Source: SAR324 cluster bacterium (lineage in GTDB: Bacteria > SAR324 > NAC60-12). Taken from it: a stretch of DNA of 64,000 nt. Positions within the stretch are counted from its first letter, which is position 1, and the number at the start of each line of letters is the position of its first letter. The stretch spans positions 660 to 64,659 of the forward strand of contig JADGAT010000016.1 of assembly GCA_015231885.1 (NCBI GenBank), written 5' to 3'. Of this stretch, positions 5,313 through 47,861 are shown in pieces. A program made the translations under genes and the position numbers. The notes beneath the pieces are model-generated. The model was given only the letters and a program-made list of their open reading frames with translations, ran no database searches and was not told the origin of the DNA.

Positions 5313-5396
5313 TTGAATTTTAAAAACCGGGAGGATTCATCTTTCGCATCAAAATGCAGAATTGATATTCCTCCACCTATATGGATTGATCCAGCT

Positions 5397-5822: not shown

Positions 5823-5852
5823 TCCGCAATCATTTGAAATTGGAAATGCATT

Positions 5853-6251: not shown

Positions 6252-6254
6252 GGA

Positions 6255-7580: not shown

Positions 7581-7943
7581 ATTCGGTAAATTTTGGTCCT
7601 TGGTTTGGCCTCTAAAAATAGAGTATATTTTCACGAATATATACATGCATCAATCCGTGAATTCCTTTGATATGCCAGAAGGTCCAAGACTCGACGGGTA
7701 CCTTCTGGATATCGAATCGTTGATAAGACTCATTTCATACTCCCTCAAAATAGTCCTTCACCAGCTGCACAATTAATGCTTCCATTTCCGCCTTCTCCAT
7801 CGCTGAGTAGTGTGAAGTCCTCTGTTCTGCGAAGAACTCGCTTGATGGCACGAATGGCTCTCTTAAAAAGTTTGCGATCCTTACGTCCGCAGCCAAGTTC
7901 CCAAATGAAACGAGAGGCTCGATCCATTTCCAACCATCTGGGT

Positions 7944-9023: not shown

Positions 9024-12000
9024 ATGCTCATGAGTACTAAAGTAACGTCACATTCCAAACACTCCGGCTTTAATCGAGATTTGCAGCTTGAAAAAGGAAT
9101 CAGCGGCTTTGTCACAGCAATGAGCGGTTTGGACCGGGATGGGGAGCGAAGCATTCACAAAAACCCTTATTTGAAGTTATTGAAAGAAACGATCAAGCAG
9201 GCATCCAATCTGGATGAAAAACGAGATCGCATTGCAGAAGCATTGATTGTTCATCTTGGGTTTCAACGAATCAAATACTATTCCGTCCTGCCCAAAGGAA
9301 GCTCCTACTTTGTCAAGTCAGAGCAGGTATGGGAAAGAGTGGAAGGGCCAGCAGGTCAGATTCAAATCACCAAAGCCGCATTGGAAGCATCCAAATACTA
9401 CCCTGGAAAGTTCGTGGAAGCAGAAAGTGCCATGGAACGCACCATTTTGATGGGCCAGCGCATCGTTTCGGATGTTGCGTCAGAACCCTACTACCGAAAT
9501 GAATTTACTGCCAATGATCCATTTGTGATGGTTCGTGTTGTGGGGGATGATAGTAAGGTCGCCGGAGTTTTAAAGGCTGATGCTTTTGAATATTCTCCAA
9601 CCAAACCAACGACATGGGTAGAAAAAGACCTCCAGGATAAAATGAAACTCATGAAATCTTTGGTTGAAAATCTAACCTTAGAGCTCATTAGCAACAACCC
9701 TGCTTCGTTTATTCAGCACCGTCCCATCAATGAGATAATTCAGGCAAATAAGAAAAATCTGCACCGCATCAATGACATCCGCAGCCTGCAGAAAGTGCTG
9801 ATTCAATCTTCATCTTTGACCAAAGAGCTTTTTATCAAAATTGGACAGACCCTGCTTTCCGACCGTTTTGGATTTACTGCCCTGCGGGTGTATTACCGCG
9901 ATCCTGCCACCAATACGGTCAAGTCAGGCAGGGTGATGGAAAAAGGAGATGAATTTCCCCACATTAACTTCAATTCTTCATACTGGAATACAGGATTTGG
10001 CCGCATGCTCCATCAGGGAGAAATCTTTGAAACGGCGGCTCGTACCAATCGTCCTATTGTGGTGGCAGATCCTGCAAATGACTATCGCTGCAGTGAAACA
10101 AGAAATCCGTTTTTGGATGATCCGTCTTCCAGTACCAAACCCTTTATTGTATTTCCCATTGGGCCTTATGGAAAAGATGGATTTATTAAACTCGACGGAT
10201 CTTCCATCGACATGGAAACCGATATTGAGCAGATGTATGGAAGTCTTTATGAACGATTGATGATCCTGGAACCATTGATCAAGCAAATTCAAATTTGCCG
10301 TGAAGAGGAGATGCAGCTCCCTTCCATTGAAGACACATGGCTGAAAGAATTCAAACTGGATATTTTTGACAACATATCTCCTCTTGAATTCAAAATAAGC
10401 ACCCTGAGAATTATGACAAAAACCGTTTTTCTCATGGATGAAAATGGGTTGGTGATTGATGAAATCAACACGATGCTGACAACGGACAGCCAAGGGCCCA
10501 TATTGTTGGAGGCATTAAGGTTTCTCAAGACAGTGATACAAAGCAGCCATGTTTCCCTGGAAAGCAAAACCAGTGTCTTTGACAGAGTGGTTGATCTTTA
10601 TAGGAACAACACCAGTGTGACTGCTGAAATGCGGCTGATTATGATCAATATCCTTTCCCTGCTGCAAAGGTTCTTTCCAAAATCTGGAATTTCCTGGCAT
10701 CAAGTCTATTTTGAATTAAGTGACATCAGTAACAACCCCCGGGTTATCTCTGCTTGGGTTAAAAGCATGCTGCACTTCATTCACATTCGTTCGATTCGAG
10801 ACAAGAAGCAAATTAATGAATACCTGGACATCATCAAGCGCATCACCTACCAAAGTCCGCTCAGCAAAAAAGATTATTTTCATGCCTGGGGTGTTTTAGC
10901 ACTGACCGGAGTATTGGACTCCGACTCCATGGTTCACTCCATTGAGCAAATGAAAGAGTATCTCAAGCGGGTTCCCCATGAACTGCCGCAAGTCTTTTCT
11001 TATGTTGCGACCATCCTGAATTCCATGGGAAATGTGTATGCCTTCAAAGAGCTTCCCAAGCGCCAAAGAAAAATCATCGAAAAAAGTTTATTTAAGTTTT
11101 TAAACCATTCCAGTCTGCATTATCGTCAGGTTGCGATTGTTGTCCTGGGAGACATGGCATTGAATCCCATGATCTCCAGAAAGAAAAGAATGCAGTTCAT
11201 TGACAAACTCATCCTGCAGCTGTATGACTCCTCTCCGATTATCCAGGAAAGTGCCATTTCTGTGTTGGTGAATATGAGCCACGAGGCCGAGTTCATTGTC
11301 AGAGAATATCAAAATGCTGGAAAAGCAAGTAAGCATGTCAAAAGTTTGTTAAAAGAAATTATCAACACTTACAACCGTCCTAATGATTTGAGTGGGGCTC
11401 GTGTGATGAGTGTTGATTTGAATGGAGAAGGACTTGGATTTGCCTCAGTCGGACCTAAATCGGAAAATCTTATTAAGCTCAATGAAAATATCAAAAGGAT
11501 CAGCCAGCTGCTGCATGTCCATAATATGTATGTTCCTAATGAAGTCACCTTAGCCAGCACCGAATATCAAGAATTTATCAGACAGGCAAAACTATCTTCG
11601 AAACTGGAAAAAACCCTGACGGCCATTGATTTTGAACAGTCGGCTCCTGATCTGCAGCTTCAATTGCAGACAGCTCACGAAAAGATTGAAAATCTATTCA
11701 TTCGAACCGAATTGCCTCCAGAAATCAAATACTCACTGGGATCTATTTTTATGGGCCACAAAGAATATTTTTTACAAAAAGGTATTTTATTTCCTGGTTT
11801 TGCGGCACGATCAGCGGCTGATGATGAGGATAAAAAGGATACAACGGCAGCCGGAAGATATGCCACTTTTCCTAATATCCAAACTTTAGAAGAACTGGAA
11901 TACTATGTGAAGCGGGTTTGGGCATCCCTCTGGTCACCAGAAGCCATGATTCATCGAAATTTGACAGGGTTGTCCCAAGCCGTTGATACAGTAAAGATGT

Positions 12001-13817
12001 CTGTTATCATCCAGATCATGGCTCCGGAAGTACAGACGTCGGGAGTGATTTTTGTTCAGAACAATGACGGTTGTCTGGATATGGAAATCAGCGCAGGATT
12101 TGGTCAATCCTGTGGGACAAGAAACAATGACAATACCGACCTCATCAAAGTGAAAGGAACTGAAATTCAGATAGAAATAGAAAGACAATATTTTCAAATT
12201 ATTACTGATGAAGAGGGGGAAGAAAAACAGGTTGAATTGTCAATAGAAGAAGGCAGCAGACAGAAGCTCACTACAGCACAAATAGAGCAGTTGATCCTTT
12301 CTGCCCGTGAATTGAGTAATGACCTTCTTTCGCCAGGGTTCCAGAATACACTCAATGACTTAGAATTTGCCATTGTCCCAAGCAATCGAGATCCTGGATA
12401 TCAAATTGCCTGGCTGCAGCAGCGCTACATGACAATGGATGAAGTGACAACGGAAGACGTATCAAATTTTGAAAGCACACCCCATGTCGTGTCTTCTGAT
12501 AAAGAACCTTATATCTACGGGAAAGCGTGTGGCATGGTACAGATCATGACGGAGGAAGATGTGTTTGATGAAGTTAAAAAACGCCAAATTCTGAAACACT
12601 CAGGAGGAAAGATATTGGTTTCCAATCGGCTTGATGAAGAAAACTTACCTTTGTTTTTTGGAAAGGAGGCCCCTGCTTTTGTCATTATTGAAATTGGTTC
12701 CAAGGCATCACACATTGTAAGAGAAGCCGATCAATTACTTAGAAAATACGGGAGAAGAATTCCCGTCATTAAAATCCAGCATGCCACCCAGTTGTTCGCA
12801 GGCATTTCTGAAGTATCCATCGAAGCCAAAGAGGGGGGACACCATCTCTATTTCCAAAATGAAAAAGACAAACAGGTTTTTATTGAGCGGCAGAGCAAGC
12901 TGAATGACAAAAAAGAAACTACTTTTGCCGAGAAATACTCAACTCCAGCAAAGCCTGTGATCTCTATCGAAGATTATCATTTGGAAGCATTGCCGGTTAA
13001 CCAGCAAACCCTTTTGAAAAGAACCGACTATGAAGTATCCATACAGGTCCTGATTGAAAAGGGAACTGACCTGCCAGGGAAAGTCGAAAACGTATTGAAC
13101 AGCCTGTATGCCATCAATACAATGCGTAAGGACCTTTTTACCACCAGTTTCACCAGCCAAATCGAGGCTCCTGACGAGTATGATCGAACTGCGGACTACC
13201 TGGGAGAAATCTATATGTTTTTCATTTCTATCCAGCGTTTTGGCACACCAGGTAAAATTACGGGGAAAATTCAAACAGCAGGCATAGAAAATGGGAAAAG
13301 GCTGACAGATCCTGAGCACAGTCTGTATCAAATTTCAACAATCATCCACCAAACGAATCAGCTCATCGAAGTCATCAATAAAACATGTTGGAAAGGTCAG
13401 TGGAGTCCCAGGCTGCTCGAATACTATTGTCCAAGCCCGCATGATGGATTAATTCCAAGCAGCAAAAGTTTTGCGATCCATGCAAAAGATTGGAGTATTA
13501 TTGTGGAAACATCGGATGATGAACTCATTTTTCATGATGCGGTGTATCAGCTCTTCCCAGTGTCAGAAAAACCTTTATTGCTGAGAGGATTGACACAAGG
13601 CAGTGTCAACGGCGGAGGTAAGCTTTGGATTGGATTTCGAGATACCACTCTTTTTAATACAACAGAAAAACAAGCACACATTTTGGCAGAGGCTGCTGGC
13701 TACTTTCTGAAACAAGGCTTTCATCCGAACCTGGATGTTCAGATTATGGAGGCAGGAACCATGTTTGGAGGCCCATTGAAAGAACACATGACATTATTTG
13801 AGCTGAGCCGGATTTGA
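9024..13817 (+). CDS. Giant multidomain protein: N-terminal GAF-like region, HEAT/armadillo-like repeats, then a PEP-utilizing-enzyme module (PPDK-N ATP-grasp nucleotide-binding domain plus phosphohistidine mobile domain), and a C-terminal region of unknown function
   Basis: 1597-aa uninterrupted ORF. The segment 'VWASLWSPEAMIHRNLTG...VIIQIMAPEVQTSGVIFVQN' matches the PEP-synthase / rifampin-phosphotransferase ATP-binding domain. 'IGSKASHIVREAD...RRIPV' resembles the GGRTSHAAIVAREL phosphohistidine loop. Confidence 0.7.
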   Translation: MLMSTKVTSHSKHSGFNRDLQLEKGISGFVTAMSGLDRDGERSIHKNPYLKLLKETIKQASNLDEKRDRIAEALIVHLGFQRIKYYSVLPKGSSYFVKSEQVWERVEGPAGQIQITKAALEASKYYPGKFVEAESAMERTILMGQRIVSDVASEPYYRNEFTANDPFVMVRVVGDDSKVAGVLKADAFEYSPTKPTTWVEKDLQDKMKLMKSLVENLTLELISNNPASFIQHRPINEIIQANKKNLHRINDIRSLQKVLIQSSSLTKELFIKIGQTLLSDRFGFTALRVYYRDPATNTVKSGRVMEKGDEFPHINFNSSYWNTGFGRMLHQGEIFETAARTNRPIVVADPANDYRCSETRNPFLDDPSSSTKPFIVFPIGPYGKDGFIKLDGSSIDMETDIEQMYGSLYERLMILEPLIKQIQICREEEMQLPSIEDTWLKEFKLDIFDNISPLEFKISTLRIMTKTVFLMDENGLVIDEINTMLTTDSQGPILLEALRFLKTVIQSSHVSLESKTSVFDRVVDLYRNNTSVTAEMRLIMINILSLLQRFFPKSGISWHQVYFELSDISNNPRVISAWVKSMLHFIHIRSIRDKKQINEYLDIIKRITYQSPLSKKDYFHAWGVLALTGVLDSDSMVHSIEQMKEYLKRVPHELPQVFSYVATILNSMGNVYAFKELPKRQRKIIEKSLFKFLNHSSLHYRQVAIVVLGDMALNPMISRKKRMQFIDKLILQLYDSSPIIQESAISVLVNMSHEAEFIVREYQNAGKASKHVKSLLKEIINTYNRPNDLSGARVMSVDLNGEGLGFASVGPKSENLIKLNENIKRISQLLHVHNMYVPNEVTLASTEYQEFIRQAKLSSKLEKTLTAIDFEQSAPDLQLQLQTAHEKIENLFIRTELPPEIKYSLGSIFMGHKEYFLQKGILFPGFAARSAADDEDKKDTTAAGRYATFPNIQTLEELEYYVKRVWASLWSPEAMIHRNLTGLSQAVDTVKMSVIIQIMAPEVQTSGVIFVQNNDGCLDMEISAGFGQSCGTRNNDNTDLIKVKGTEIQIEIERQYFQIITDEEGEEKQVELSIEEGSRQKLTTAQIEQLILSARELSNDLLSPGFQNTLNDLEFAIVPSNRDPGYQIAWLQQRYMTMDEVTTEDVSNFESTPHVVSSDKEPYIYGKACGMVQIMTEEDVFDEVKKRQILKHSGGKILVSNRLDEENLPLFFGKEAPAFVIIEIGSKASHIVREADQLLRKYGRRIPVIKIQHATQLFAGISEVSIEAKEGGHHLYFQNEKDKQVFIERQSKLNDKKETTFAEKYSTPAKPVISIEDYHLEALPVNQQTLLKRTDYEVSIQVLIEKGTDLPGKVENVLNSLYAINTMRKDLFTTSFTSQIEAPDEYDRTADYLGEIYMFFISIQRFGTPGKITGKIQTAGIENGKRLTDPEHSLYQISTIIHQTNQLIEVINKTCWKGQWSPRLLEYYCPSPHDGLIPSSKSFAIHAKDWSIIVETSDDELIFHDAVYQLFPVSEKPLLLRGLTQGSVNGGGKLWIGFRDTTLFNTTEKQAHILAEAAGYFLKQGFHPNLDVQIMEAGTMFGGPLKEHMTLFELSRI

Positions 13818-14407: not shown

Positions 14408-14558
14408 TGCTGATTCTTTCATATTTCCTTTCGTAACTCTGCGATCAAGATACTATATAGCGCCAGATGATTCAAGACGTTCTGTCCCTGTGTCCGCATT
14501 AATTTTCCCTTCCACATAATGAATAATTTGACTACACGCGCTTTGTGTTGTATTTTTG

Positions 14559-14591
14559 ATATTATTTACAGTATTATTTACAGTATTATTT
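14559..14591 (+). promoter_or_regulatory. Tandem direct repeats (TATTATTTACAG x2.75) in the vapBC promoter region; candidate autoregulatory operator
   Basis: Two exact 12-bp repeats at 14559-14570 and 14571-14582, plus a partial third, lying 16 bp upstream of the vapB start. Confidence 0.4.
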
Positions 14592-14606
14592 TATACGAAG
14601 GTTAGA

Positions 14607-14852
14607 ATGCAAAGAATATCCGTGACACTTCCTGATGATGTCGTACAACGATTTCATGCAAAGGTTGAAAAAGGGGAACGTTCAAAATTTATTACGAATG
14701 CAATCAAAGAAGCTCTCCAAAAAGAAGAAAAATGGAAAGCATTTCAATCACTGACTCAATTCAAACCATTCGCGGTTTTCCGTGACTCAACAGAGGTGTT
14801 AAGAGAAATCAGAGAAAAAGGCCCTAAAGAGACATTAGAGGAGAAACAATAG
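14607..14852 (+). CDS. vapB: Ribbon-helix-helix (CopG/VapB-like) antitoxin
   Basis: 'MQRISVTLPDDVVQRFHAKV' is a typical RHH N-terminal beta-strand plus helix. GAAGG RBS upstream. The stop lies 1 nt before the PIN gene. Confidence 0.7.
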   Translation: MQRISVTLPDDVVQRFHAKVEKGERSKFITNAIKEALQKEEKWKAFQSLTQFKPFAVFRDSTEVLREIREKGPKETLEEKQ

Positions 14853-14853
14853 G

Positions 14854-15288
14854 ATGCCTTTATATATAATTGATTCTTCTGTATTTAATAAATTGTATTT
14901 AGAAGAGCCAGGAAGGAATACTGCTCTCATGATTTTCGAGCAGGCATCGAAAGGAAATATCAATTTATTGGCTCCTCAGTTATTATACTATGAGGTCATC
15001 GCAACAGCACAGTATTATAAATTACCCATAGGCTCTATTTCACAACTGCTAGATCAACAGATAAAATACAATCTACCCCTTGTCGAGCCCACAGAGGAAC
15101 ATCGGCATAAAGCTATTGAAATTATTCAGATGGGACATCCTAAGAATGGATCCCCAACAATTTATGATGCAATATTTCACGCTATTGCGATCATAGAAAA
15201 TGGAACATTTGTTACAGCAGATAGAAAACACTTTGTTAAGGCAAATACACTTGGTTACATTACGATGTTAGAGACATGGGAAGCATAA
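14854..15288 (+). CDS. vapC: PIN-domain toxin (VapC family)
   Basis: N-terminal 'YIIDSSVF' (first catalytic Asp), a central acidic residue, and C-terminal 'FVTADRKHF' (conserved Asp). 144 aa. Translationally coupled to the upstream RHH gene. Confidence 0.75.
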   Translation: MPLYIIDSSVFNKLYLEEPGRNTALMIFEQASKGNINLLAPQLLYYEVIATAQYYKLPIGSISQLLDQQIKYNLPLVEPTEEHRHKAIEIIQMGHPKNGSPTIYDAIFHAIAIIENGTFVTADRKHFVKANTLGYITMLETWEA

Positions 15289-16497: not shown

Positions 16498-17043
16498 ATG
16501 TTAAAACCAAACCCATTGAAATTTATAAACGTTCTAGCCATATTTATCGTTATTGTCACATGTTCGCTGAAAGCAGCAGCCCAAACTTCTATTGACAGCC
16601 TTCCCATCAGAAACTTAAGTCATCCTGAGGGAAATACATTTGCCAGCGGACAACCCACTAAAGAGGAATTTTCATCACTGGCTGAATTGGGAATCAAACA
16701 CATAATCAATCTCCGTCCTGCTGAAGAACAAAGTTGGAACGAAGGCGAATATGTTGAAGCACTTGGCATGAAATATCATTCGATACCTGTTGCGGGTGCG
16801 GCTGGAATTACTAAGGAAAATGCATTATTATTTGCTGCCACGCTAAAAGAAATTGGGGGAGCTCCCACGCTAGTACATTGCGCCAGTGGAAACCGAATTG
16901 GAGCCCTCATTGCCTTGCGCCAGGGATTATTAGAAGGGAAAGATATTGAAACGGCTGTGAATCATGGAAAATTATGGGGGCTCACCCGTTTAGAACCTTT
17001 AGTACGTGAGATGCTATCCAAATCTCTTTTGAGACCATTATGA
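16498..17043 (+). CDS. Secreted DUF442-type putative phosphatase / sulfurtransferase-fold protein (PTP-like Cys loop)
   Basis: N-terminal signal peptide. Contains a 'VHCASGNRIG' Cys-X4/5-Arg P-loop. Confidence 0.6.
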   Translation: MLKPNPLKFINVLAIFIVIVTCSLKAAAQTSIDSLPIRNLSHPEGNTFASGQPTKEEFSSLAELGIKHIINLRPAEEQSWNEGEYVEALGMKYHSIPVAGAAGITKENALLFAATLKEIGGAPTLVHCASGNRIGALIALRQGLLEGKDIETAVNHGKLWGLTRLEPLVREMLSKSLLRPL

Positions 17044-17324
17044 AAAAAACATTCAAACTGACCCACCCGAAAATCAAAGTTGCCAGGCTTGTTGAAGCCA
17101 TCAAGCATGAAGTGAGAAAATATCTAAAAAGAGAACGCAGGAAGAATTTACCGAAAGATGCTGATTTTTGGGATTTTGACTGCCGGTATGGTGATGACGA
17201 ATCCAGTAGTCAAGTCATCCATGTGTCTGATATTGATAAATTCATTAATCAGGCCGAGTTGAAGCAGCTGGAATCCTTTTATTTGGAAATTCTGGCCAAA
17301 CCTGGTTATCGAAAAAAAAGATAA
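17040..17324 (+). CDS. Small basic hypothetical protein
   Basis: 94 aa. Overlaps the upstream gene by 4 nt (ATGA), suggesting translational coupling. Confidence 0.45.
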   Translation: MKKTFKLTHPKIKVARLVEAIKHEVRKYLKRERRKNLPKDADFWDFDCRYGDDESSSQVIHVSDIDKFINQAELKQLESFYLEILAKPGYRKKR

Positions 17325-22426: not shown

Positions 22427-23644
22427 TCAGGAGCAAGACTTTTTAGGAAGGATAATCTTGAATGTGGCACCAACTGCTTCAGTGGAAATATATTTTACCA
22501 TCCCATTGTGATCTTCAACCGCTTTTTTAACAATAGTCAATCCCAGTCCTATTCCTGTCGTTTTTCCATGAGAGACAAAGGGATCAAACAGGGACTGTTG
22601 AATTGCCGGTGGAATACCAGGTCCATTGTCCTCAATTTCAATTTCCAAATGATCTTCAAAATCAAACACTTCTACACGGATACGTGGATTTTCTGTTTTA
22701 GAATAGCGCAGTGCTTCCCAGGCGTTTTTGCATAAGTTGACCAAAGCCCTGTGAATTCGGTTGGCATCCAAATGATATAAGGCTGTTGTTGACAATTCTA
22801 ATTGCAGAGTAATTGGCCAGGCCTGTGTGATTTGAGTGAATTCCTTTTGTAGATGATCTAACATCTGCCTGGAGTCGATTGGCTGTAAATGGACGGTACT
22901 GGGGTCTTTGGCAAACAGCAAAATTTCCTCAATCATGCCAACCAGACGCTGAATTTCATCATTCAGCAATTCTCCATAGTTTTCGCGTTGTTCTTCTGTT
23001 AAATCCTGATGAACAAGTACATATCCCATGGTCGAAATACTGGTAACGGGATTTCGGAGGTCGTGAACAATCATAGAAGCCATCTTGCCCAGGGTACTCA
23101 AGCGCTCTTGCTGCACCAATTCGTTTTGTGTTTCCTGCAGTAAAGTGAGTGTTTCTTCCAATTTTATATTTTTCTTCTGCAACATCTCAATCAGCATACT
23201 ATCTGTTTGCCGGAGACGTTGACTGAGAAACTTCATGAGATTGATAGCAAACCGGCTTCTTTCCACAACAAGAAGTTTTTCAAAATTGATTTCGTCAATG
23301 ATGAGAAAATGGGATCGTGTTTTTGTTTTTAAACTCGCGCTCCTGGGCTCATTCTCAATAACGGCCATTTCTCCAAAACAATCCCCCTGTTTACCAACAG
23401 TCAGAATCGTTGGTGCCTCTTCCAATCCTAAGAATAGAACTGTTTCCCCGTCCAACTGAAAAAAAATTTTCTTCCCCAAATCTCCTTCACGAAAAACAAT
23501 GGTGCTGGCATCATACTGCTCAATGGTTGTATATTGGGAGATATCGATCAATTGCTGCTCAGGAATATCCTTGAACAAGTGGGTATCCTTTAGGGTTAAG
23601 ATCCATTCAGAAGCCGTTTTTTTATTTTTAGAATTGTTCATCAT
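22427..23644 (-). CDS. Cyclic-nucleotide-binding-domain sensor histidine kinase
   Basis: N-terminal cNMP-binding domain (FGEMAVIENEPRSAS). HisKA H-box 'IVHDLRNPVTSI'. HATPase_c 'GIGLGLTIVKK'. Confidence 0.8.
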   Translation of the reverse strand: MMNNSKNKKTASEWILTLKDTHLFKDIPEQQLIDISQYTTIEQYDASTIVFREGDLGKKIFFQLDGETVLFLGLEEAPTILTVGKQGDCFGEMAVIENEPRSASLKTKTRSHFLIIDEINFEKLLVVERSRFAINLMKFLSQRLRQTDSMLIEMLQKKNIKLEETLTLLQETQNELVQQERLSTLGKMASMIVHDLRNPVTSISTMGYVLVHQDLTEEQRENYGELLNDEIQRLVGMIEEILLFAKDPSTVHLQPIDSRQMLDHLQKEFTQITQAWPITLQLELSTTALYHLDANRIHRALVNLCKNAWEALRYSKTENPRIRVEVFDFEDHLEIEIEDNGPGIPPAIQQSLFDPFVSHGKTTGIGLGLTIVKKAVEDHNGMVKYISTEAVGATFKIILPKKSCS

Positions 23645-23656
23645 CGATCTCTCACA

Positions 23657-23989
23657 TCAAGGTTCGCGAGATTCTATTTCAGATTCAATACAAATTTGAC
23701 CATCGTCGTGATAGCGGTTTATTTCTCTAATGGTTGTATTATACTTTGTATTTCCAATAATAGAGCGAAGGTGAAATTTTGCGGCATTTTGAGAAATTCG
23801 AATTGCCGTTTTTTCATCCAATGCACATCCTGTTCCAGTCACTTGGAGTCTTGTTGGGGTTTCGTATCGGAGGGAATACTCAGAGCCTGATCTGGAACGA
23901 AAACGCTCTGATGGAGACGAACAGGCAAACAATACGACACTGCATAGCATCGCAATGCCTATGGCCTGGTATCTTTTTTTATTTGGCAT
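23657..23989 (-). CDS. Predicted lipoprotein
   Basis: Signal peptide with lipobox 'LFACSS'. Lies 12 nt downstream of the kinase gene. Confidence 0.5.
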   Translation of the reverse strand: MPNKKRYQAIGIAMLCSVVLFACSSPSERFRSRSGSEYSLRYETPTRLQVTGTGCALDEKTAIRISQNAAKFHLRSIIGNTKYNTTIREINRYHDDGQICIESEIESREP

Positions 23990-24342
23990 GACAGCCGTTC
24001 TATACCTGTGATTATTGGATAACATGACCCTGCTCTAGCCTAATTTATTTTATTTTTCACATAAGAATTCATTTTTCTATAACTTCTGGTATGCGATTTG
24101 TATGCAAGTATTCTTAGAATGATTTTCAAAATCTTCTGAAACTTTATATTCTTTGGAACGAGAATAAAATAGTGTCCCTATTTTTGATAAATCCTCTTTT
24201 TATAATAATATAAGCACCAGGCAAAAGTATTTTAACATTTTTCTTTGACTGTCATCCCGAGGTACGAGTGACGTGACAATCTCTTTATTCCGTAGATTGC
24301 TTCAGCACACTTCCCGCTTCGGCGTACCGTCGCAATGCCGGA

Positions 24343-33900: not shown

Positions 33901-34186
33901 TCTTTGGATCTAGAATAGAAGAAATGAATTTATGCGAATCCGAAGTTAAAATTTATTTTAAAGAAAAATGACAAGTGCATGATACAGTGTATTGCTTGAA
34001 AAATCTATGGGCTTGATCATATTTTCGCCCAGCTATACTCGTCATTGCGAGGACTGAGGAACGCTGAACGCAGCAATCTCAGGAAGAAATAAATCGCTTC
34101 GCCGTGGCGATGACAATCTTGGGGTGGATCAAAATGTGATCATCTCCAAATCTACTTTTCTATCGGTCTGATTTTACTGTTAAAGT

Positions 34187-34525
34187 TCACCCGAGACATT
34201 TCTCATATAAATCCAGGTGAAATCCAACAATGAACTGATTGCCTATTTGCAGCGTGGGGGCTCTCAAGTTTCCACTGGGGCCCATCACATGGGTCAGTAT
34301 GCTGTCCTGTTCCTCGGTGGTTGAATCAAAAGAAATCACTTTTTTACCTTTTGCCACAGTAATCTTTGACGAACCCTTTAATAAGTCCCAGGCAGCCCCC
34401 GGATCAAATCTTTCTTTGCGTGCATCAACAATCGTTTGTACCTTAACCTGCTTTGCATCAAGAAACTCTTGTGCTTTTTTACAGGATGTTCAACCTTTCC
34501 GAAAATACATCCAATCTATTTTCAT
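34187..34525 (-). CDS. Candidate selenoprotein of the ArsC/Spx/YffB thioredoxin-fold family, with an in-frame UGA (Sec) at codon 12 replacing the first Cys of the CxxC motif (G-U-T-S-C)
   Basis: AAGGAG RBS lies 8 nt upstream of the ATG at 34525. Reading through the TGA at 34490-34492 gives a 112-aa protein, MKIDWMYFRKG-U-TSCKKAQEFLDAKQV...RAPTLQIGNQFIVGFHLDLYEKCLG. It aligns along its full length with ArsC-family proteins (Spx 'PSCTSCRKARAWLEEH' against 'RKGUTSCKKAQEFLDAK'; YffB C-terminus 'KRPLL...LLGF' against 'RAPTL...IVGF'). The ORF track missed it because of the TGA. Confidence 0.6.
34455..34474 (-). promoter_or_regulatory. Candidate bacterial SECIS hairpin downstream of the in-frame UGA
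   Basis: The mRNA segment GCACAAGAGUUUCUUGAUGC forms a stem of 7 bp with one bulge and a 5-nt AGUUU loop, beginning 16 nt 3' of the UGA. Bacterial SECIS elements start about 11-20 nt downstream. Loop composition is not canonical. Confidence 0.3.
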
Positions 34526-34734
34526 CGAACACACTCCTTCTTTATTTAAAGAACTCAAGAGTCGTAAGTTTTTATGTCATACCGGACTTGAATCGGTATC
34601 CAAATGCTGTAACTATCTGATAATAATAATGGATTTCAGATTAAGCCCAGAATAACAATATGATGACACCGAATCAATAATATCAGTAACTTAAAAGAAC
34701 TTATGACTGTCGAGTAAAGAATTGTAATTTAAGC

Positions 34735-34815: not shown

Positions 34816-35337
34816 ATGGAAGCCAAAAAAGAATTTTTATCCTTACATATCTCCATATTGACCATTTCCGATACACGCACTGAAGCAAATGATACATCCG
34901 GTCAAACTCTGGTCAGCAGGCTTAAAGAAGCTGGACATGCGCTGATAGAAAAGTGTATTGTCATTGATGATATCTACAAAATTCGCGAAATTGTATCACG
35001 CTGGATTGCCAATGACGGCATTGATGTGATAATTACAACAGGGGGAACTGGTTTGACAGGACGAGACGGTACCCCAGAGGCTGTTTTACCATTGTTTGAT
35101 AAAGAGATTGAAGGATTTGGAGAATTGTTTCGATCCATCTCATTTCAGGAGATTCACACATCAACAGTTCAATCCCGAGCCGTTGCCGGTGTGAGCAACG
35201 GAACATACATCTTTTGCCTGCCAGGTTCCTCTGGAGCCTGCCGCACGGGATGGGATAAAATTCTTAAAGATCAGCTTGATTATCGGCACCGTCCCTGTAA
35301 TTTTGCAGAACTCATTCCTCGCTTAAAGGAATACTAA
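34816..35337 (+). CDS. moaB: Molybdenum cofactor biosynthesis protein MoaB/MogA family (molybdopterin adenylyltransferase-like)
   Basis: 'GGTGLTGRD' MoCF-biosynthesis signature. 173 aa. Confidence 0.8.
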   Translation: MEAKKEFLSLHISILTISDTRTEANDTSGQTLVSRLKEAGHALIEKCIVIDDIYKIREIVSRWIANDGIDVIITTGGTGLTGRDGTPEAVLPLFDKEIEGFGELFRSISFQEIHTSTVQSRAVAGVSNGTYIFCLPGSSGACRTGWDKILKDQLDYRHRPCNFAELIPRLKEY

Positions 35338-35360
35338 TCACCATCAAAGGAGGTGTACAA

Positions 35361-36047
35361 ATGAAATATGCAATTCCCTTATTCAACATTCCTACCATTG
35401 ACGTGGCTGGACAATCCTCAAGTTTTCCAGTACATCGCATTTATTGTGTGGGACGTAATTATGCAGCACATGCCCGGGAAATGGGAAGTGACCCCAAGCG
35501 AGAGCCTCCCTGCTTTTTTACCAAACCGGGAGATTCTGTTGTGGCCAATGGAAGCCAGGTTCCTTATCCTTCAGCAACCGAAAACCTGCACCATGAGGTG
35601 GAACTCGTTGTTGCTATTGGCAAAGACGCTTTAAATATCTCTGCAGATAAAGCCAAAGGTATCATTTTTGGATATGCCGTGGGCAATGATTTGACACGTC
35701 GTGATTTGCAGGCCCAAGCTAAAAAACTGGCACAACCCTGGGATGTGGCCAAAGGTTTTGATCACTCAGCACCCATCACGGCAATTCATCCTGTAGAAAA
35801 AGTAGGGCACCTGGAAAAAGGTGAAATATGGCTGAAAGTGAATGACGACATGCGGCAGCATGGGCATATTGAAGACATGGTGTGGAGCATTCCTGAAGTG
35901 ATTGAAGCCCTTTCCAAATTGTTTCGTTTGATACCTGGAGACCTGATTTTTACAGGAACTCCTGCTGGAGTAGGAGCCCTCTCTCCTGGTGATAAAGTGG
36001 AAGGTTGTGTAGAAGGACTGGATATTTTAAAACATACTGTTGTATAG
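35361..36047 (+). CDS. Fumarylacetoacetate hydrolase (FAH) family protein
   Basis: FAH-fold C-terminal domain sequence, 228 aa. AAAGGAGG RBS upstream. Confidence 0.8.
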   Translation: MKYAIPLFNIPTIDVAGQSSSFPVHRIYCVGRNYAAHAREMGSDPKREPPCFFTKPGDSVVANGSQVPYPSATENLHHEVELVVAIGKDALNISADKAKGIIFGYAVGNDLTRRDLQAQAKKLAQPWDVAKGFDHSAPITAIHPVEKVGHLEKGEIWLKVNDDMRQHGHIEDMVWSIPEVIEALSKLFRLIPGDLIFTGTPAGVGALSPGDKVEGCVEGLDILKHTVV

Positions 36048-36078
36048 TGGTCATCTATTTGCATCTAAATGAACAATA

Positions 36079-37524
36079 TTGCTCATAAGTGTTAAAGTTC
36101 CAAACTTTTTGAAATATATGCAGATGAAAGAAACTAGCCCTGAAAAACAGATTCAGACCTTACAGTCGGAGCTGGAAATAGCCCGCCAGACTCTGAAAGA
36201 TCGAGATCAGGAAATTGAACGTTTCCAGAAGGATTTCAAAAAAGCCAAGATGCAATTGGCAGAAGTACAAAAAGTTGCAGCGATGGTAGCAGAATTAAAA
36301 ATTGAAGCAACTACGGATCGCTTGACAGGATGCTGGAATCAAAATAAACTGACGGATGACCTGGAAGTTCATAAAAAAGGGACATTGATTTATTTCAAAT
36401 TGGACAATATTGGAAAAATCAATGATGCTCTCGGTTTTGAAGCAGGAAATGAGACTGTTGTGCAAATAATTCGGAATCTTCAGCAATTCTTAACCAAAGA
36501 CTATCAACTGTATCGCTGCTGGAGATCTGAGTTTGCTATTCTGATTAAAGAGAACACACAGCAAGGCTTTGAATTGACTGAAAAAATTCGAGATTATCTG
36601 GATTCCGTCCATATCATGTTCGAAAAAACCAGGATCGTGCCAGCCCTGCTCTTCAGCCTTACTGATTTAGCCTTGGGAGACCCCATCCGTCACGTCTATA
36701 TCACCCTCGAAGAAGCCAAAAAAACAAAAAAGACACTGATCTATAGTGACGATCTTGATGCCCAGGAACAATTTTTGAAAGGTTTGGAAGAAGCGAAAAC
36801 AGTGAGTGAAGCCTTTGAGAAAAACCTTTTTTTCCCTGTATTTCAAGGGATTCGGGATAACCGCAAAAACAGTCCCCATTACCAAAAAATCCATAAATTT
36901 GAATGTTTGATTCGTCTGCAATCCGGAGAGAAGGTACTGTCACCTTACTTTTTCATGAAAGGCTTGGAACAGGGGCATCAACTCAGCCGGGCTACCAAAA
37001 TCATGATCATGAAAAGCTGTGAAGCGATGGCGCCGTATACCTACGATTTTTCGATCAATTTGACGGAACAGGACTTGCTGGACGAATCCATGCTCGAATT
37101 TGTGCTGTTCCAAATAGAAGGAAACCAGATTGATCCCGCACGGGTCACTTTTGAAATCCTGGAAGGCATTGGTTCAATGGAGTCTGATACCATCCTTGGC
37201 TTTTTGCATACCTTGAAAAAGAAAAGATGTAAAATTGCCATTGATGACTTTGGAGCAGAGCAATCGAACATTGGAAGATTGCTCAACTTTGAACCGGATT
37301 TTATTAAGATTGATGCCAAGTTCATCAAAAACCTGGCAACTGATAAAAAAAGCCGGATCATTGTAGAAAATGTATTTGACCTCGCAACTCGTATTGGGGC
37401 TGAGGTCGTTGCTGAGTTTGTGGAAAACGAAGACATTCAGCAAGTGATAGAAGACATAGGAATTCATTTTTCCCAAGGGTATTTATTTTCCGTCCCTAAG
37501 GCTGAACTTCCGGAGTCAGGATAA
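36079..37524 (+). CDS. Signalling protein with coiled-coil, a degenerate GGDEF domain and an EAL phosphodiesterase domain
   Basis: The GG(D/E)EF site is replaced by 'WRSEFAIL'. EAL-domain C-terminal half present, with 'ECLIRL' in place of 'EALVRW'. The start may be at 36121. Confidence 0.75.
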   Translation: MLISVKVPNFLKYMQMKETSPEKQIQTLQSELEIARQTLKDRDQEIERFQKDFKKAKMQLAEVQKVAAMVAELKIEATTDRLTGCWNQNKLTDDLEVHKKGTLIYFKLDNIGKINDALGFEAGNETVVQIIRNLQQFLTKDYQLYRCWRSEFAILIKENTQQGFELTEKIRDYLDSVHIMFEKTRIVPALLFSLTDLALGDPIRHVYITLEEAKKTKKTLIYSDDLDAQEQFLKGLEEAKTVSEAFEKNLFFPVFQGIRDNRKNSPHYQKIHKFECLIRLQSGEKVLSPYFFMKGLEQGHQLSRATKIMIMKSCEAMAPYTYDFSINLTEQDLLDESMLEFVLFQIEGNQIDPARVTFEILEGIGSMESDTILGFLHTLKKKRCKIAIDDFGAEQSNIGRLLNFEPDFIKIDAKFIKNLATDKKSRIIVENVFDLATRIGAEVVAEFVENEDIQQVIEDIGIHFSQGYLFSVPKAELPESG

Positions 37525-44342: not shown

Positions 44343-47300
44343 TCATAATGAATGCACATGCAGGATATCCTGTTTCAGTTGGGATTGCGCGAGTTCCACA
44401 AGATGGTGATGGTGGGAAAACAAAAGAATTTGTGTTTTTTGGGAGAGTTCTGCCAAAGTGTGCAACAAGGCTTCTGACCGTTGATCATCAAAATTAATCA
44501 AAATGTCATCCACAATAAAAGGAATAGGTTCGTGCTTTTCCAGATATTGTTCGAGGTGTGCAAGTCGTAGGGAAAGATAGAGCTGGTCCCGCGTCCCATC
44601 ACTCATCCCTTCCACCAGCACCTGTTGGCCATCAGAACGGACTCCGACCAGGATCGGCGTGTCATGCTTTGCATCAAAATCGGTTTGCAGTCCGGCAAAA
44701 GATCCCAGGGTCAATCTGGTAAAATATTGACTGGCACTGGACAGCAAAGGATCCTGCTTTTCTTTGCGATAGTACTCGATTTGCCGCTGGAGAATAAGAA
44801 AAGATAGTTGAACCAGGAGATAGCGCTCCACCCCATCCCTGATTTCTGCGGCACAATTTTCTACTTTTTCTGCCGCTTCTGCCGCTTTTCCTCCGCCATC
44901 CATATTATTCAAGGCATTGGTGTTGCTGCCAAGTTCTTTTGTCATCTCCAGCTGCTGCTGCTCCAGAGATTTGATTTGGTGTTCTGTTTCTCTGATGGTT
45001 TCTGGCAATGTATCGACATCCAGTGATTCTGTTTTGACGATGAGTTCATCAATGGCCAACCCGCCTCCATCATCAAGTAGTTGGCTTTCGACCCGTTTCA
45101 AATCTTTTTGCAGCATTTCTACTTTTAAGAAGCTCTCTTCTACTTCTTCCAACTCTTCTATTGTCTCGCACTGAGCCTTCTGGCACAGGGTTTTCAAAAT
45201 TTGGTTTGCTTCTTCTACCTCACGCCGTGCTGTATCAAATACTTTCTGACGGGCTTCCTGCTGTTGCTGATGTTCTTTTAATGAGGCAGAGTCCTGTTTT
45301 GTTTTTTCGAGCAGCGCATACATTTTGTTGACTGCTTGAGAAAGAGGGAGTTTTTCGAGCTCAGGAGCATACTGGTTCATAAAAATTTCCACTTTTTTCT
45401 CATAGCTTTCGGCATCCCGATCAATACCACGAATTCGCTTGGTGTGGCTGGCCACTTGATCTATTTTTTTAAAGAGTTCCTCCAGTTCTACCATGACTTC
45501 ATTGACTGTGGAGGGTACTTCATTTTCATTCAACCCCAATGATTGAATAGCAGAGGACCAGTTTGATTTCCAAGTTTGGAGTTCATTGATTGCCGTTTGT
45601 CTTTGTTCATGGGCATCTTTCATTTCGTTTTCAGATTGAATGAGCTGCTGCTCCAGTTGTTCTCTTTTACGATTGGACGTTTCGATGTGCTCCACCAGAG
45701 ATTCGGCACTTCCTATGAGATCATCCAGTCTATGTGTTGTGGACGTTTCCAGTTTTTGTAAATCATCATGTTCCAGGGGGTCCAATTGCTGAAGGCACTT
45801 TCTGATTGCCTGGCAATGATCCGCAATGCTTTTTTGCAAATACTCCAGCTGCGCCTGCCCCTTGCGGAATTTCTCAGCATGCTGTACAAGAAGCTGCTGT
45901 TGATCAATCCAAGTAAGCATTTCCTGAGGAGAGTATGGCGTTACTTGGATGGTATGCCAGCGTTCATTCCATGCATTTTGGCACTCGGATCGTTTTTGTT
46001 GTGTTTCCAAAATTTTTTGTTCCAATTGCCGAACATCTTCCTGGTATTTTCCTTTATCGGCAAGATAAGTTGCCTGTTGGGCCACACGCTCGGCTTCGCG
46101 GCGTAAACGGTCTGCCATTTCGTCAGCCTTCCGGACAATGCTCTGGTAGGTGTCCAGGAGTGAATGATTGAAGATGGTTTCAGTTTTCATTTCTTTTCCC
46201 GACTTTTCTTCAATGAGCATGAGGCGAATGGCTTCCCAGTCCTTATCTCTTAAAAAGCGGACCGATTCCAACTCATTTTCTGAGGGCACTGACCCGGCAA
46301 GCTCCAATTCTTTGAGTTGACGATCCAGTTCCATGACTTTATTCCTATTTTGTGTGCATTGGTTTTCTAGGGCTTTTAATTCTTGATTCAACTGTCCCAA
46401 CTCCCGATCGAATTGGTTCACCATTTCTCTAGAAGGCACTTGCAGCGTTTCTAAATCTACCAGTGTCCCAGACCACCCAGGCAAACGCTTTCGTTCAATT
46501 TCAATTTGTTTTGTTTCCTGTGCCAATTGATGCTGCAACTGCTGGTATTCCAATTCCAGGTCCCCTTGTTTTTCAGCACGTTTAACGGCTTGCTTCAATA
46601 GTGCGGGATTCTGAAATTTACCAGATTGCTTCAAAGAGTGTTGCGAGGCAGCTATGTTTTTTTCCAATTGCTTCAATTTTTTATCGGTCTGATCCTTTTG
46701 TTCAAACAGAGCCTGACGCTGATTTCCTAAATCCTGAATTCTACGACGCTGTGCTGTGGTGAGCCTCAATGATTCAACCTCAGCAAGAGGCGTATTGTAT
46801 TGGAGTTTTTTTAAAATAGTGTCCGCATCCATTTCTAACAGTTTTTGTTCTCCCTGAAGGCGAGTTCGATCTGAATGGGCTTTTTGGTAACTGCCCAGCT
46901 GCTGATGTAAATTCTGAATGATCTGTGATTGCTGGAGAAATGTTTCTGATATGTGTAACGCAGCCTTCCGTGTTTCAATTTGCTGCAGCTCTTCGCCGGT
47001 ACGATCCGCTGTATTTGAAGCAACTTTTAATTGTTCTAAAGCATTGCGGTGGGTTTTGGAAAAATCTACTGGGAGCGTGGGCAGGCTTCCCAGTTGTTGC
47101 AGTTGACTCAACAACATTTTTCGCTCGGCGATGAGCGGAATTGCCCTTAAAAAACGTTCCCATTTGTTCTTTTCTGTGCGCAGCTGGTGTATTTTTTTTG
47201 TAACCTGATCTATTTTGGTTTGAACCTCTTTGATGGTTTGTTCCAGGGCGAGCCACTGCTGGCTGGGAAGAGAGATATGAAGCTTTTCAGCTTTTGCGTC

Positions 47301-47861
47301 TTTGTAGGCATGAATGGCTTTGTTGATTATTTTTTGTCCTCTTGGGCGGAAAAGAGATTCTGCTTCTTTTTCTAAGGTGCGCATAACTTCACGCAGCTGA
47401 GTATTTCCCATTCCTGCTGAAAATAAACTCCTGCCCAATTGCCCTTGTCCCTGCAGAATGTCTTCTCCTCCGTCGTGCAAGGTTTCGTGGTTTATGCCAA
47501 AGAAGGAGGAAAAAACTTCTTTTTCCAGATTGCCCAGGAGTTTTTGTAAGACATTGTCTGGAAGCGGTTGTCCGTCGGCATCCAACAACGTGTTTTTTCT
47601 GCCTTTTCTGCGGATAAAAGAGGATTCCAAACCATTGGAGTGACGCAAGCGTGCTCCCACACGAAGTTCCTGGTTTAAATAAGTATCAGAGGATTGATGA
47701 GGAAAACCATAGAAAAACCCTGTCAAGGCACGAAGTGTTGAGCTTTTTCCCGCTTCATTCGGGCCATAAATGAGGTGTATTCCTTCTTTTCCTGCTGAAA
47801 GGTCCAATGTTTGGTGGCTGAATGAGCCATAAGCCGTCAGATCCAAATAGAGGATTTTCAT
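44343..47861 (-). CDS. sbcC: SbcC/YhaN-like AAA ATPase with a long coiled-coil (Rad50-family; no CxxC zinc hook seen)
   Basis: N-terminal Walker A 'GPNEAGKSSTLRA'. More than 900 aa of heptad-rich coiled-coil. C-terminal signature / Walker B / D-loop 'FIVDDILINFDDQR'. Confidence 0.8.
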   Translation of the reverse strand: MKILYLDLTAYGSFSHQTLDLSAGKEGIHLIYGPNEAGKSSTLRALTGFFYGFPHQSSDTYLNQELRVGARLRHSNGLESSFIRRKGRKNTLLDADGQPLPDNVLQKLLGNLEKEVFSSFFGINHETLHDGGEDILQGQGQLGRSLFSAGMGNTQLREVMRTLEKEAESLFRPRGQKIINKAIHAYKDAKAEKLHISLPSQQWLALEQTIKEVQTKIDQVTKKIHQLRTEKNKWERFLRAIPLIAERKMLLSQLQQLGSLPTLPVDFSKTHRNALEQLKVASNTADRTGEELQQIETRKAALHISETFLQQSQIIQNLHQQLGSYQKAHSDRTRLQGEQKLLEMDADTILKKLQYNTPLAEVESLRLTTAQRRRIQDLGNQRQALFEQKDQTDKKLKQLEKNIAASQHSLKQSGKFQNPALLKQAVKRAEKQGDLELEYQQLQHQLAQETKQIEIERKRLPGWSGTLVDLETLQVPSREMVNQFDRELGQLNQELKALENQCTQNRNKVMELDRQLKELELAGSVPSENELESVRFLRDKDWEAIRLMLIEEKSGKEMKTETIFNHSLLDTYQSIVRKADEMADRLRREAERVAQQATYLADKGKYQEDVRQLEQKILETQQKRSECQNAWNERWHTIQVTPYSPQEMLTWIDQQQLLVQHAEKFRKGQAQLEYLQKSIADHCQAIRKCLQQLDPLEHDDLQKLETSTTHRLDDLIGSAESLVEHIETSNRKREQLEQQLIQSENEMKDAHEQRQTAINELQTWKSNWSSAIQSLGLNENEVPSTVNEVMVELEELFKKIDQVASHTKRIRGIDRDAESYEKKVEIFMNQYAPELEKLPLSQAVNKMYALLEKTKQDSASLKEHQQQQEARQKVFDTARREVEEANQILKTLCQKAQCETIEELEEVEESFLKVEMLQKDLKRVESQLLDDGGGLAIDELIVKTESLDVDTLPETIRETEHQIKSLEQQQLEMTKELGSNTNALNNMDGGGKAAEAAEKVENCAAEIRDGVERYLLVQLSFLILQRQIEYYRKEKQDPLLSSASQYFTRLTLGSFAGLQTDFDAKHDTPILVGVRSDGQQVLVEGMSDGTRDQLYLSLRLAHLEQYLEKHEPIPFIVDDILINFDDQRSEALLHTLAELSQKTQILLFSHHHHLVELAQSQLKQDILHVHSL

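What the first reader, a model, noticed from the sequence alone, without database searches (positions are those of the whole stretch)
34187..34525. ArsC/Spx-family gene with an in-frame UGA at the catalytic Cys position; candidate selenoprotein missed by ORF calling
A minus-strand gene with a strong AAGGAG RBS 8 nt upstream of its ATG has a single in-frame TGA at codon 12, at plus-strand 34490-34492. The TGA sits exactly where ArsC/Spx/YffB-family proteins carry the first Cys of the N-terminal CxxC redox motif, giving G-U-T-S-C in place of the Spx C-T-S-C. Reading through it gives a 112-aa protein that aligns along its full length with the ArsC thioredoxin fold, including the YffB-like C-terminal 'RAPTL...IVGFHLDLY'. 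The plus-strand ORF 34239-34655 in the track is antisense to this gene and should be discarded. Arsenate-reductase-like selenoproteins have been reported only sporadically. This would mean the organism carries the selA/selB/selC/selD Sec-insertion machinery elsewhere in its genome.
Basis: partly seen in the sequence, partly recalled or inferred. Interest (0 to 1): 0.85.

Follow-up and report, generated by a model that had tools for sequence, protein, structure and literature searches.

The report
Known ArsC-like selenoprotein gene, miscalled
This is a real but ordinary gene for a small redox protein that uses selenocysteine (encoded by UGA). It belongs to a selenoprotein family that is already catalogued, and standard gene callers cut it short.

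Summary
A minus-strand gene (34525..34187) has an AAGGAG ribosome-binding site, an ATG start, one in-frame TGA at codon 12 (34490-34492) and a 112-codon reading frame.

With Cys at codon 12, the protein matches NCBIfam NF041106, "ArsC family (seleno)protein", end to end (137.8 bits, cut-off 85). In 79 of the 80 best related genome loci the same codon is TGA, and one has Cys. Two further Cys forms also align Cys there.

All 80 TGA forms, the window's included, have a hairpin 16 nt after the UGA with G-U in its loop. Some pairs show compensatory changes. Three Cys forms lack the hairpin.

TGA ends 11 of 30 family-supported genes in the window, so the genetic code is standard.

The nearest ortholog is in a SAR324 genome assembled from a metagenome (80% aa identity, dN/dS 0.15, same neighbouring genes).

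A structural model of a Cys homolog is glutaredoxin-like. Its closest solved structures are YffB, ArsC-related proteins and Spx, at moderate scores. Pfam PF03960 does not hit.

No selA, selB, selD or tRNA-Sec gene lies in the window, so that requirement is untested.

ArsC-like UxxC selenoproteins have been listed in surveys since 2006-2008. Interest is low.

The parts
34187..34525 (-). Coding sequence of a 112-aa ArsC-related selenoprotein (ATG 34525-34523, stop TGA 34189-34187)
   Evidence: Searches give the sequence. NCBIfam NF041106 matches at E=1.9e-40, 137.8 bits against a cut-off of 85, covering profile positions 1-107 of 107. 80 homologous loci are conserved over the full length. dN/dS is 0.15 against ortholog L001.
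34534..34539 (-). Shine-Dalgarno AAGGAG, 8 nt before the ATG
   Evidence: Read directly. GAAGGAG is also present before the ATG of ortholog L001.
34490..34492 (-). In-frame UGA, codon 12, read as selenocysteine (U12 of the U-T-S-C redox motif)
   Evidence: The same codon is TGA in 79 of 80 related loci and TGT in L036. It is TGC or TGT in the Cys forms L081 and L082. It aligns with the YffB Cys and with Spx Cys10.
34481..34483 (-). TGT, Cys15, the presumed resolving cysteine of the UxxC motif
   Evidence: Columns 10-11 (T, G) are invariant in the 80-sequence alignment. Cys is present at this position in every locus.
34455..34474 (-). SECIS-like hairpin core, GCACAAGA-GUU-UCUUG(A)UGC. It starts 16 nt after the UGA. 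The loop G-U sits at positions 27-28 counted from the U of UGA.
   Evidence: The MFE fold contains it. The local hairpin energy is -7.0 kcal/mol. All 80 TGA forms have the hairpin at the same place, at -6.2 to -12.1 kcal/mol, against -0.7 to -3.6 in three Cys forms. 81% of cells are paired, against 60% or less in slid controls. Compensatory pairs are 21-35 (UA 47, CG 9), 23-33 and 26-30.
34447..34485 (-). Optional outer stem CCUGU/GCAGG enclosing the hairpin (extended SECIS)
   Evidence: Present in the MFE fold of the window and of many relatives, but not all. Not conserved across the family, so it is of uncertain relevance.
34239..34655 (+). 138-aa antisense ORF, judged spurious
   Evidence: Listed. 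It has no NCBIfam or Pfam match. The antisense strand is open for 100 or more codons in only 31 of 81 loci, whereas the minus-strand gene is conserved in all.

Best explanation
The locus encodes a 112-residue glutaredoxin/thioredoxin-fold redox protein of the ArsC-related selenoprotein family (NCBIfam NF041106).

Translation starts at the ATG at 34525. The UGA at codon 12 is not a stop. SelB carrying Sec-tRNA(Sec) is recruited by a hairpin in the mRNA that begins 16 nt downstream and has G-U in its apical loop. SelB inserts selenocysteine there.

U12 and C15 form a U-x-x-C centre after strand beta-1, at the start of helix alpha-1. This is the position of the catalytic Cys of ArsC and YffB and of Spx Cys10. 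The centre most likely cycles between a selenol/thiol state and a selenenylsulfide state, so the protein acts as a small disulfide or metalloid-thiol reductase.

Shown here: the gene structure, family membership, conservation of the UGA, the Sec/Cys pairing, the conserved hairpin, purifying selection and the fold.

Inferred: actual Sec insertion in this organism, the redox cycle and the substrate. Arsenate reduction is not supported specifically.
For: - Family: NF041106 matches at 137.8 bits against a cut-off of 85, full length.
- UGA: TGA is kept at the same codon in 79 of 80 loci from Desulfuromonadales, Desulfobacterales, SAR324 and others. Conserved coding sequence lies on both sides.
- Sec/Cys pairing: Cys occupies that column in L036, P0059 and P0066.
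- Database artefact: database proteins with 'W' at that site are TGA read under another genetic code.
- Hairpin: it is present in all 80 TGA forms at -6.2 to -12.1 kcal/mol and is weak or absent in three Cys forms. 81% of cells are paired against 60% or less when slid, and pairs 21-35, 23-33 and 26-30 show compensatory changes.
- Selection: against the SAR324 ortholog L001 dN/dS is 0.15, the TGA is retained, and the neighbouring moaB, FAH and GGDEF-EAL genes are syntenic.
- Genetic code: TGA terminates 11 of 30 family-supported genes in the window, including this gene itself.
- Profile: the family profile hits YffB, Spx and ArsC-related chains at E from 2.5e-4 to 7e-3, aligning U12 with their Cys.
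- Literature: ArsC-like UxxC selenoproteins are catalogued in PMC1794560, PMC2398784 and PMC9312934.
Against: - No selA, selB, selD or tRNA-Sec lies in the 64 kb window. The organism's ability to decode Sec is therefore not shown directly.
- No second selenoprotein gene was found in the window.
- No Rfam family matches the hairpin.
- The single-sequence fold is no better than shuffles (z = -0.39).
- The hairpin overlaps conserved codons (A-Q-E-F-L-E), so part of its conservation is protein-driven. One slid control (-2) has more double-change cells than the true register.
- Only three Cys-form DNA controls were available.
- Pfam PF03960 does not hit.
- The structural model is of a 55%-identical Cys homolog, not of the window's own protein.
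Confidence: 0.93

Rival explanations
1. The TGA is a sequencing or assembly error, or a recent nonsense mutation, in a Cys-form gene (a pseudogene or miscall).
For: A single base separates TGA from TGT or TGC. Cys forms of the family exist (L036, L081, L082). The Sec machinery is not visible in the window.
Against: The same TGA occurs in 79 of 80 independent genomes, including the closest ortholog L001. The SECIS-like hairpin, which the Cys forms lack, is intact in the window. Both sides of the TGA are under purifying selection (dN/dS 0.15).
Confidence: 0.02
2. The UGA is read through or recoded as a standard amino acid (Trp, Cys or Arg by near-cognate tRNA, or a reassigned code) rather than as selenocysteine.
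For: Many database entries for the family show W at this site. No direct chemical evidence for selenium exists here.
Against: Those W entries are TGA in the DNA and do not translate to the stored protein under table 11, so they are gene-caller artefacts. TGA is a regular stop in this window, ending 11 of 30 genes. A UGA paired with Cys in a redox UxxC motif, with a hairpin at SECIS distance, is the signature of Sec (established knowledge). The family is curated as a (seleno)protein.
Confidence: 0.03
3. Translation stops at codon 12. The functional product is a shorter protein started downstream, such as the 56-aa GTG ORF at 34357, or no product at all.
For: This is what standard ORF calling yields. 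Public annotations of relatives are mostly N-terminally truncated at 80-103 aa.
Against: The truncated forms lack strand beta-1 and the redox motif. Their 'starts' vary between loci. The 11 upstream codons, the RBS and the U/CxxC motif are conserved in frame. Cys forms are continuous 112-117-aa proteins.
Confidence: 0.02

Closest known systems
NCBIfam NF041106, ArsC_rel_Se_1, 'ArsC family (seleno)protein'
   Same: Full-length match above the curated cut-off. It shares the U/C-x-x-C motif, the length of about 112 aa and the invariant GPSGNLRAP and GF..Y motifs.
   Different: Nothing of substance. This is a SAR324-type member, 80% identical to the nearest public ortholog. Public entries carrying this name are often truncated after the Sec codon.
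'ArsC-like', 'distant ArsC homolog' and 'Arsenate reductase 2 (UxxC)' selenoproteins of the Zhang/Gladyshev surveys (PMC1794560, PMC2398784, PMC9312934)
   Same: A COG1393/ArsC-like thioredoxin-fold protein with Sec in a UxxC motif. Reported in Deltaproteobacteria (Desulfotalea, Desulfuromonas) and in marine metagenomes.
   Different: I did not compare this sequence directly with the published accessions. Identity with those exact families is inferred from the motif, the taxa and the COG assignment.
YffB (PA3664, PDB 1rw1) and ArsC-related proteins (3gkx, 2kok) of Pfam PF03960
   Different: The Pfam PF03960 model does not match. TM-scores are only about 0.5. The model shows a beta-hairpin (residues 53-66, carrying the near-invariant G-K-K), and this central segment is where the superposition on these proteins is poor. 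YffB has a single Cys rather than UxxC. Ala, not Arg or Lys, precedes the conserved Pro.
Spx (PDB 1z3e, 3gfk, 3l78), a CxxC redox-sensing regulator that binds RNA polymerase
   Same: The same N-terminal C-T-S-C context, here U-T-S-C. Full-length profile and fold hits.
   Different: The Spx NCBIfam models score far below their cut-offs (24.3 against 75; 14.7 against 152). The protein is about 20 residues shorter than Spx. There is no evidence of RNA-polymerase binding.
Glutaredoxin / NrdH-type small redoxins
   Different: The score is below the Pfam gathering threshold. This protein has an extra roughly 35-residue insert and a C-terminal helix typical of the ArsC/Spx group.

Membership tests
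NCBIfam NF041106 ArsC family (seleno)protein | HMM score at or above the curated cut-off (85 bits), over the full model | tested here: met
   137.8 bits, E=1.9e-40, profile positions 1-107 of 107, with U replaced by C.
NCBIfam NF041106 ArsC family (seleno)protein | Sec or Cys at the first position of the N-terminal U/C-x-x-C motif | tested here: met
   U12-T-S-C15 in the window. The motif is G-U-x-S-C in 79 of 80 loci and C-T-T-C in L036.
Bacterial selenoprotein (SelB/SECIS-dependent UGA recoding) | In-frame UGA aligned with Cys in homologs, with conserved coding sequence on both sides | tested here: met
   dN/dS is 0.15 against L001.
Bacterial selenoprotein (SelB/SECIS-dependent UGA recoding) | Stem-loop just downstream of the UGA with G(U) in the apical loop (bacterial SECIS) | tested here: met
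   The hairpin occupies columns 19-38 after the UGA. Loop G27 is invariant and U29 nearly so. It is present in all 80 TGA forms and weak in three Cys forms. The spacing rule for bacterial SECIS elements is recalled from the literature, not tested. No Rfam model hit.
Bacterial selenoprotein (SelB/SECIS-dependent UGA recoding) | Genome encodes selA, selB, selC (tRNA-Sec) and selD | not testable with these tools
   None of these lies in the 64-kb window. The rest of the genome is not available, and the exact-protein look-up of the neighbouring RimO found no source contig.
Bacterial selenoprotein (SelB/SECIS-dependent UGA recoding) | Selenium demonstrated in the protein | not testable with these tools
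   This needs 75Se labelling or mass spectrometry.
ArsC/Spx/YffB family (Pfam PF03960) | Match to the Pfam PF03960 model | tested here: not met
   There is no PF03960 hit even at E <= 1. The only hit is Glutaredoxin PF00462 at 19.5 bits, below its 22.9 cut-off. One homolog, P0112, carries a precomputed PF03960 hit.
ArsC/Spx/YffB family (Pfam PF03960) | ArsC/Spx-type thioredoxin-like fold with the reactive Cys after beta-1 | tested here: met
Arsenate reductase ArsC proper (R773 type) | Arsenate-binding Arg triad and arsenate reductase activity | tested here: inconclusive
Spx transcriptional regulator | Match to the Spx equivalog or subfamily models | tested here: not met
   TIGR01617 scores 24.3 bits against a cut-off of 75.05. 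NF009885 scores 14.7 against 152.

The most novel reading that the evidence does not exclude
The subfamily is almost entirely Sec-dependent (79 of the 80 nearest loci) and structurally distinct from ArsC, Spx and YffB. It has a beta-hairpin carrying an invariant G-K-K and an invariant GPSGNLRAP loop. It might therefore carry out a redox reaction that is not yet described, rather than arsenate reduction. In some lineages this could serve PF03773 ArsP-type permeases. Its presence in SAR324 genomes would also mean that this abundant deep-ocean lineage decodes Sec. Two SAR324 single-cell genomes were listed in 2016 as having only an orphan SelD.
Probability: 0.25. Interest if true: 0.35.

Novelty: already known. 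Interest (0 to 1): 0.15.

Why it matters
The main value is for annotation. The gene should be called as one 112-codon selenoprotein CDS (34525..34187, transl_except Sec at codon 12), and the antisense ORF should be dropped. The gene also marks the source organism, probably a SAR324 bacterium, as a likely selenocysteine user. It shows how public databases misrepresent this family: some entries are N-terminally truncated and others have the Sec codon read as Trp. It does not open a new biological question, because the family, its Sec/Cys pairing and the recoding mechanism are already catalogued.

Tried and rejected
- **Rfam.** Neither the whole window at gathering thresholds nor 34150-34650 at E <= 10 gave a SECIS family hit, only noise.
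- **Single-sequence folding.** Folding the 71 nt after the UGA gave z = -0.39, which is uninformative alone. The comparative analysis was needed.
- **Source contig.** An exact look-up of the neighbouring RimO protein found nothing on record.
- **Structure of the window's own protein.** The 55%-identical Cys homolog P0009 was modelled instead.
- **Other selenoprotein genes in the window.** A scan for reading frames that stay open across a TGA gave three candidates, and all were rejected. The 16974-17324 candidate is simply a normal ATG ORF at 17040-17324. The 7593-7952 candidate is low-complexity non-coding sequence. At 22427-24025, a lipoprotein-like 122-aa ORF ends in TGA just before a histidine-kinase gene in the same frame.
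- **Sec machinery in the window.** NCBIfam scans of about 45 ORFs found no selA, selB or selD.
- **Conserved operon context as a clue to function.** No neighbouring gene family occurs in more than 9 of 81 loci.
- **Reassigned genetic code.** Rejected, because TGA is a common stop codon here.

Full report
**Observation.** Everything below is on the minus strand.
- AAGGAG lies at 34539-34534, followed by an 8-nt spacer and the ATG at 34525-34523.
- Eleven sense codons follow (MKIDWMYFRKG), then TGA at 34492-34490.
- Next come ACA TCC TGT (T-S-C) and an open frame to the terminal TGA at 34189-34187.
- Read-through gives 112 residues.
- Standard ORF listing returns only a 56-aa GTG fragment on this strand and a 138-aa antisense ORF at 34239..34655.

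The description is accurate to the base.

**Family.** I replaced U with C and scanned the protein.
- It matches NCBIfam NF041106, 'ArsC family (seleno)protein', over the whole model (E = 1.9e-40, 137.8 bits, cut-off 85).
- Spx, glutaredoxin and ArsC models score far below their cut-offs in the same scan.
- Pfam gives no PF03960 hit. The only hit is a sub-threshold Glutaredoxin match.

**Is the TGA conserved?**
- A protein search found 260 relatives. Aligned, the full-length ones show either W or C at the U column. Most others are N-terminally truncated to 80-103 aa.
- For two of the 'W' entries I fetched the DNA. The codon is TGA, and the gene does not translate to the stored protein under table 11. 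These are gene-caller artefacts, not Trp forms.
- A scan of a collection holding one genome per species found 538 related loci.
- In the 80 best loci, 79 carry TGA at exactly this codon (G-U-x-S-C) and one, L036, carries TGT. In every locus the 11 upstream codons are conserved in frame.
- Two more Cys forms (P0059 and P0066; loci L082 and L081) also place Cys there.

**SECIS.**
- Every TGA form has a hairpin at the same place. It spans columns 19-37/38 counted from the U of UGA, so it begins 16 nt after the codon.
- The consensus is GCUCARGAG-UUU-CUUGAGC. G27 is invariant in the loop, and the loop reads G-U or G-G.
- In the window the hairpin is GCACAAGA-GUU-UCUUG(A)UGC at 34474-34455, at -7.0 kcal/mol.
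- The 80 TGA forms range from -6.2 to -12.1 kcal/mol (mean -8.8). The same stretch in the three Cys forms gives -0.7 to -3.6.
- On the alignment 81% of cells are paired, against 28-60% in slid registers. Pair 21-35 switches between U-A (47) and C-G (9). Pairs 23-33 and 26-30 show double changes.
- Sequences with a bulged A35 show A21-U36 against G21-C36 (read).

Caveats:
- The hairpin overlaps the conserved codons A-Q-E-F-L-E, and the sequences are related to each other.
- One slid control has more double-change cells than the true register.
- The single-sequence fold is not significant (z = -0.39).
- Rfam has no matching model.
- That the position and loop fit the bacterial SECIS pattern (E. 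coli fdhF has G23/U24) is my recollection of the literature, not a test.

**Alternatives.**
- TGA ends 11 of 30 family-supported genes in the window, including this gene, so the code is standard.
- The closest ortholog is L001, in a SAR324 MAG. It is 80% identical, keeps the TGA and the RBS, and gives dS 0.72, dN 0.11 and dN/dS 0.15.
- L001 also shares the divergent moaB (95% aa), FAH-family and GGDEF-EAL neighbours.
- A sequencing error, a pseudogene or a downstream start does not fit these data.

**Fold and relation to ArsC/Spx/YffB.**
- A profile of the family hits YffB (1rw1, E 2.5e-4), Spx (3l78 and 1z3e, about 6e-4) and ArsC-related chains over the full length.
- That alignment places the U column on their N-terminal Cys and 'LRAP...VGF..Y' on YffB 'IKRP...VGF..Y'.
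The model has pLDDT 92 and pTM 0.84, with topology b-a-b-a-b-b-a-b-b-a.
- Foldseek puts Spx and ArsC-related proteins first, at probability 1.00 but TM about 0.5.
- The protein is therefore a distant ArsC/Spx/YffB relative with a glutaredoxin-like core and a family-specific beta-hairpin bearing G-K-K.
- Nothing supports arsenate reduction specifically, and Spx-type regulation is not supported.

**Context.**
- Neighbours in the window are housekeeping genes. On one side are lon, ruvA, ruvC, yebC and rimO. On the other are moaB, a FAH-family gene and a GGDEF-EAL gene.
- Across 81 loci no neighbouring family occurs in more than 9 loci.
- The commonest neighbour is a PF03773 ArsP_1 permease. This is a weak hint of a metalloid or thiol link in some lineages only.

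**Sec machinery.**
- The window has only tRNA-Pro.
- It has no selA, selB or selD among about 45 scanned ORFs.
- It has no other credible read-through gene.
- This defining requirement remains untested.

**Prior knowledge.**
- 'ArsC-like' and 'distant ArsC homolog' selenoproteins were reported in Desulfotalea and Desulfuromonas in 2006 (PMC1794560).
- 'Arsenate reductase 2, UxxC' was reported in ocean metagenomes in 2008 (PMC2398784).
- 'Arsenate reductase-like protein, COG1393, UxxC' is listed in a 2022 review (PMC9312934).
- NCBI curates a model for the family.

**Verdict.** The novelty was overstated. This is a correctly spotted, mis-called member of a known selenoprotein family.

Noticed in passing
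Loci L015, L017, L018, L043 (same strand, upstream) and L003, L004, L012, L026, L032 (convergent, abutting): In 9 of 81 loci the selenoprotein gene lies next to a PF03773 ArsP_1 'predicted permease' (E = 4e-48 for the L018 copy). In the Desulfocicer/Desulfobacterium loci L018 and L043 a small ORF precedes the permease on the same strand. It looks like an ArsR-type regulator by eye only, as I ran no family scan on it. This may be a clue to function in those lineages. The arrangement is absent from the window.
   Followed up: partly
window 34816-37524 compared with L001 173-2877: moaB (95% aa), a FAH-family gene (84%) and a GGDEF-EAL gene (87%) are syntenic with SAR324 MAG JANQHV010000170, so the window is probably from a SAR324-cluster bacterium. 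A 2016 survey (PMC5029168, Table 1) listed two SAR324 single-cell genomes as 'orphan SelD' organisms without selenoprotein genes. Four loci here with titles naming SAR324 (L001, L074, L078) or syntenic with it (the window) carry this TGA gene.
   Followed up: partly
Proteins P0001-P0030 (W forms); P0037, P0039, P0045 (named 'ArsC family (seleno)protein'): Public protein sets misrepresent this family in two ways. On short metagenome contigs the Sec codon is translated as Trp (checked for P0005 and P0023: TGA in the DNA). In annotated MAGs the entries start after the Sec codon and so lack strand beta-1 and the selenocysteine.
   Followed up: yes
window 22427-24025 (-): A 122-aa ORF and a 405-aa histidine kinase share a frame, separated by a single TGA (23659-23657). 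The upstream ORF has a signal-peptide/lipobox-like N-terminus (…VVLFAC-SS) and no family hit. The kinase has its own ATG 12 nt on. I read them as two adjacent genes, not a selenoprotein.
   Followed up: partly
window 3759-7376 (+): A cluster resembling a Na+-translocating decarboxylase. It holds a methylmalonyl-CoA decarboxylase alpha-like subunit (below the equivalog cut-off), a biotin carboxyl carrier protein and a beta subunit (TIGR01109, 496 bits). A TRAP fused permease lies upstream at 95-2038.
   Followed up: no
window 14556-15288 (+): A small ribbon-helix-helix ORF (weak RHH_5 hit, below the cut-off) lies directly before a PIN-domain ORF (E = 1.5e-11). The layout is that of a VapBC-type toxin-antitoxin pair.
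   Followed up: no
window 9024-13817 (+) and 44343-47861 (-): Two very large ORFs (1597 aa and 1172 aa) have little or no family assignment. The first has only a partial PEP-synthase-like region (residues about 826-1290, far below the cut-off). The second has no NCBIfam hit at E <= 1e-30.
   Followed up: no
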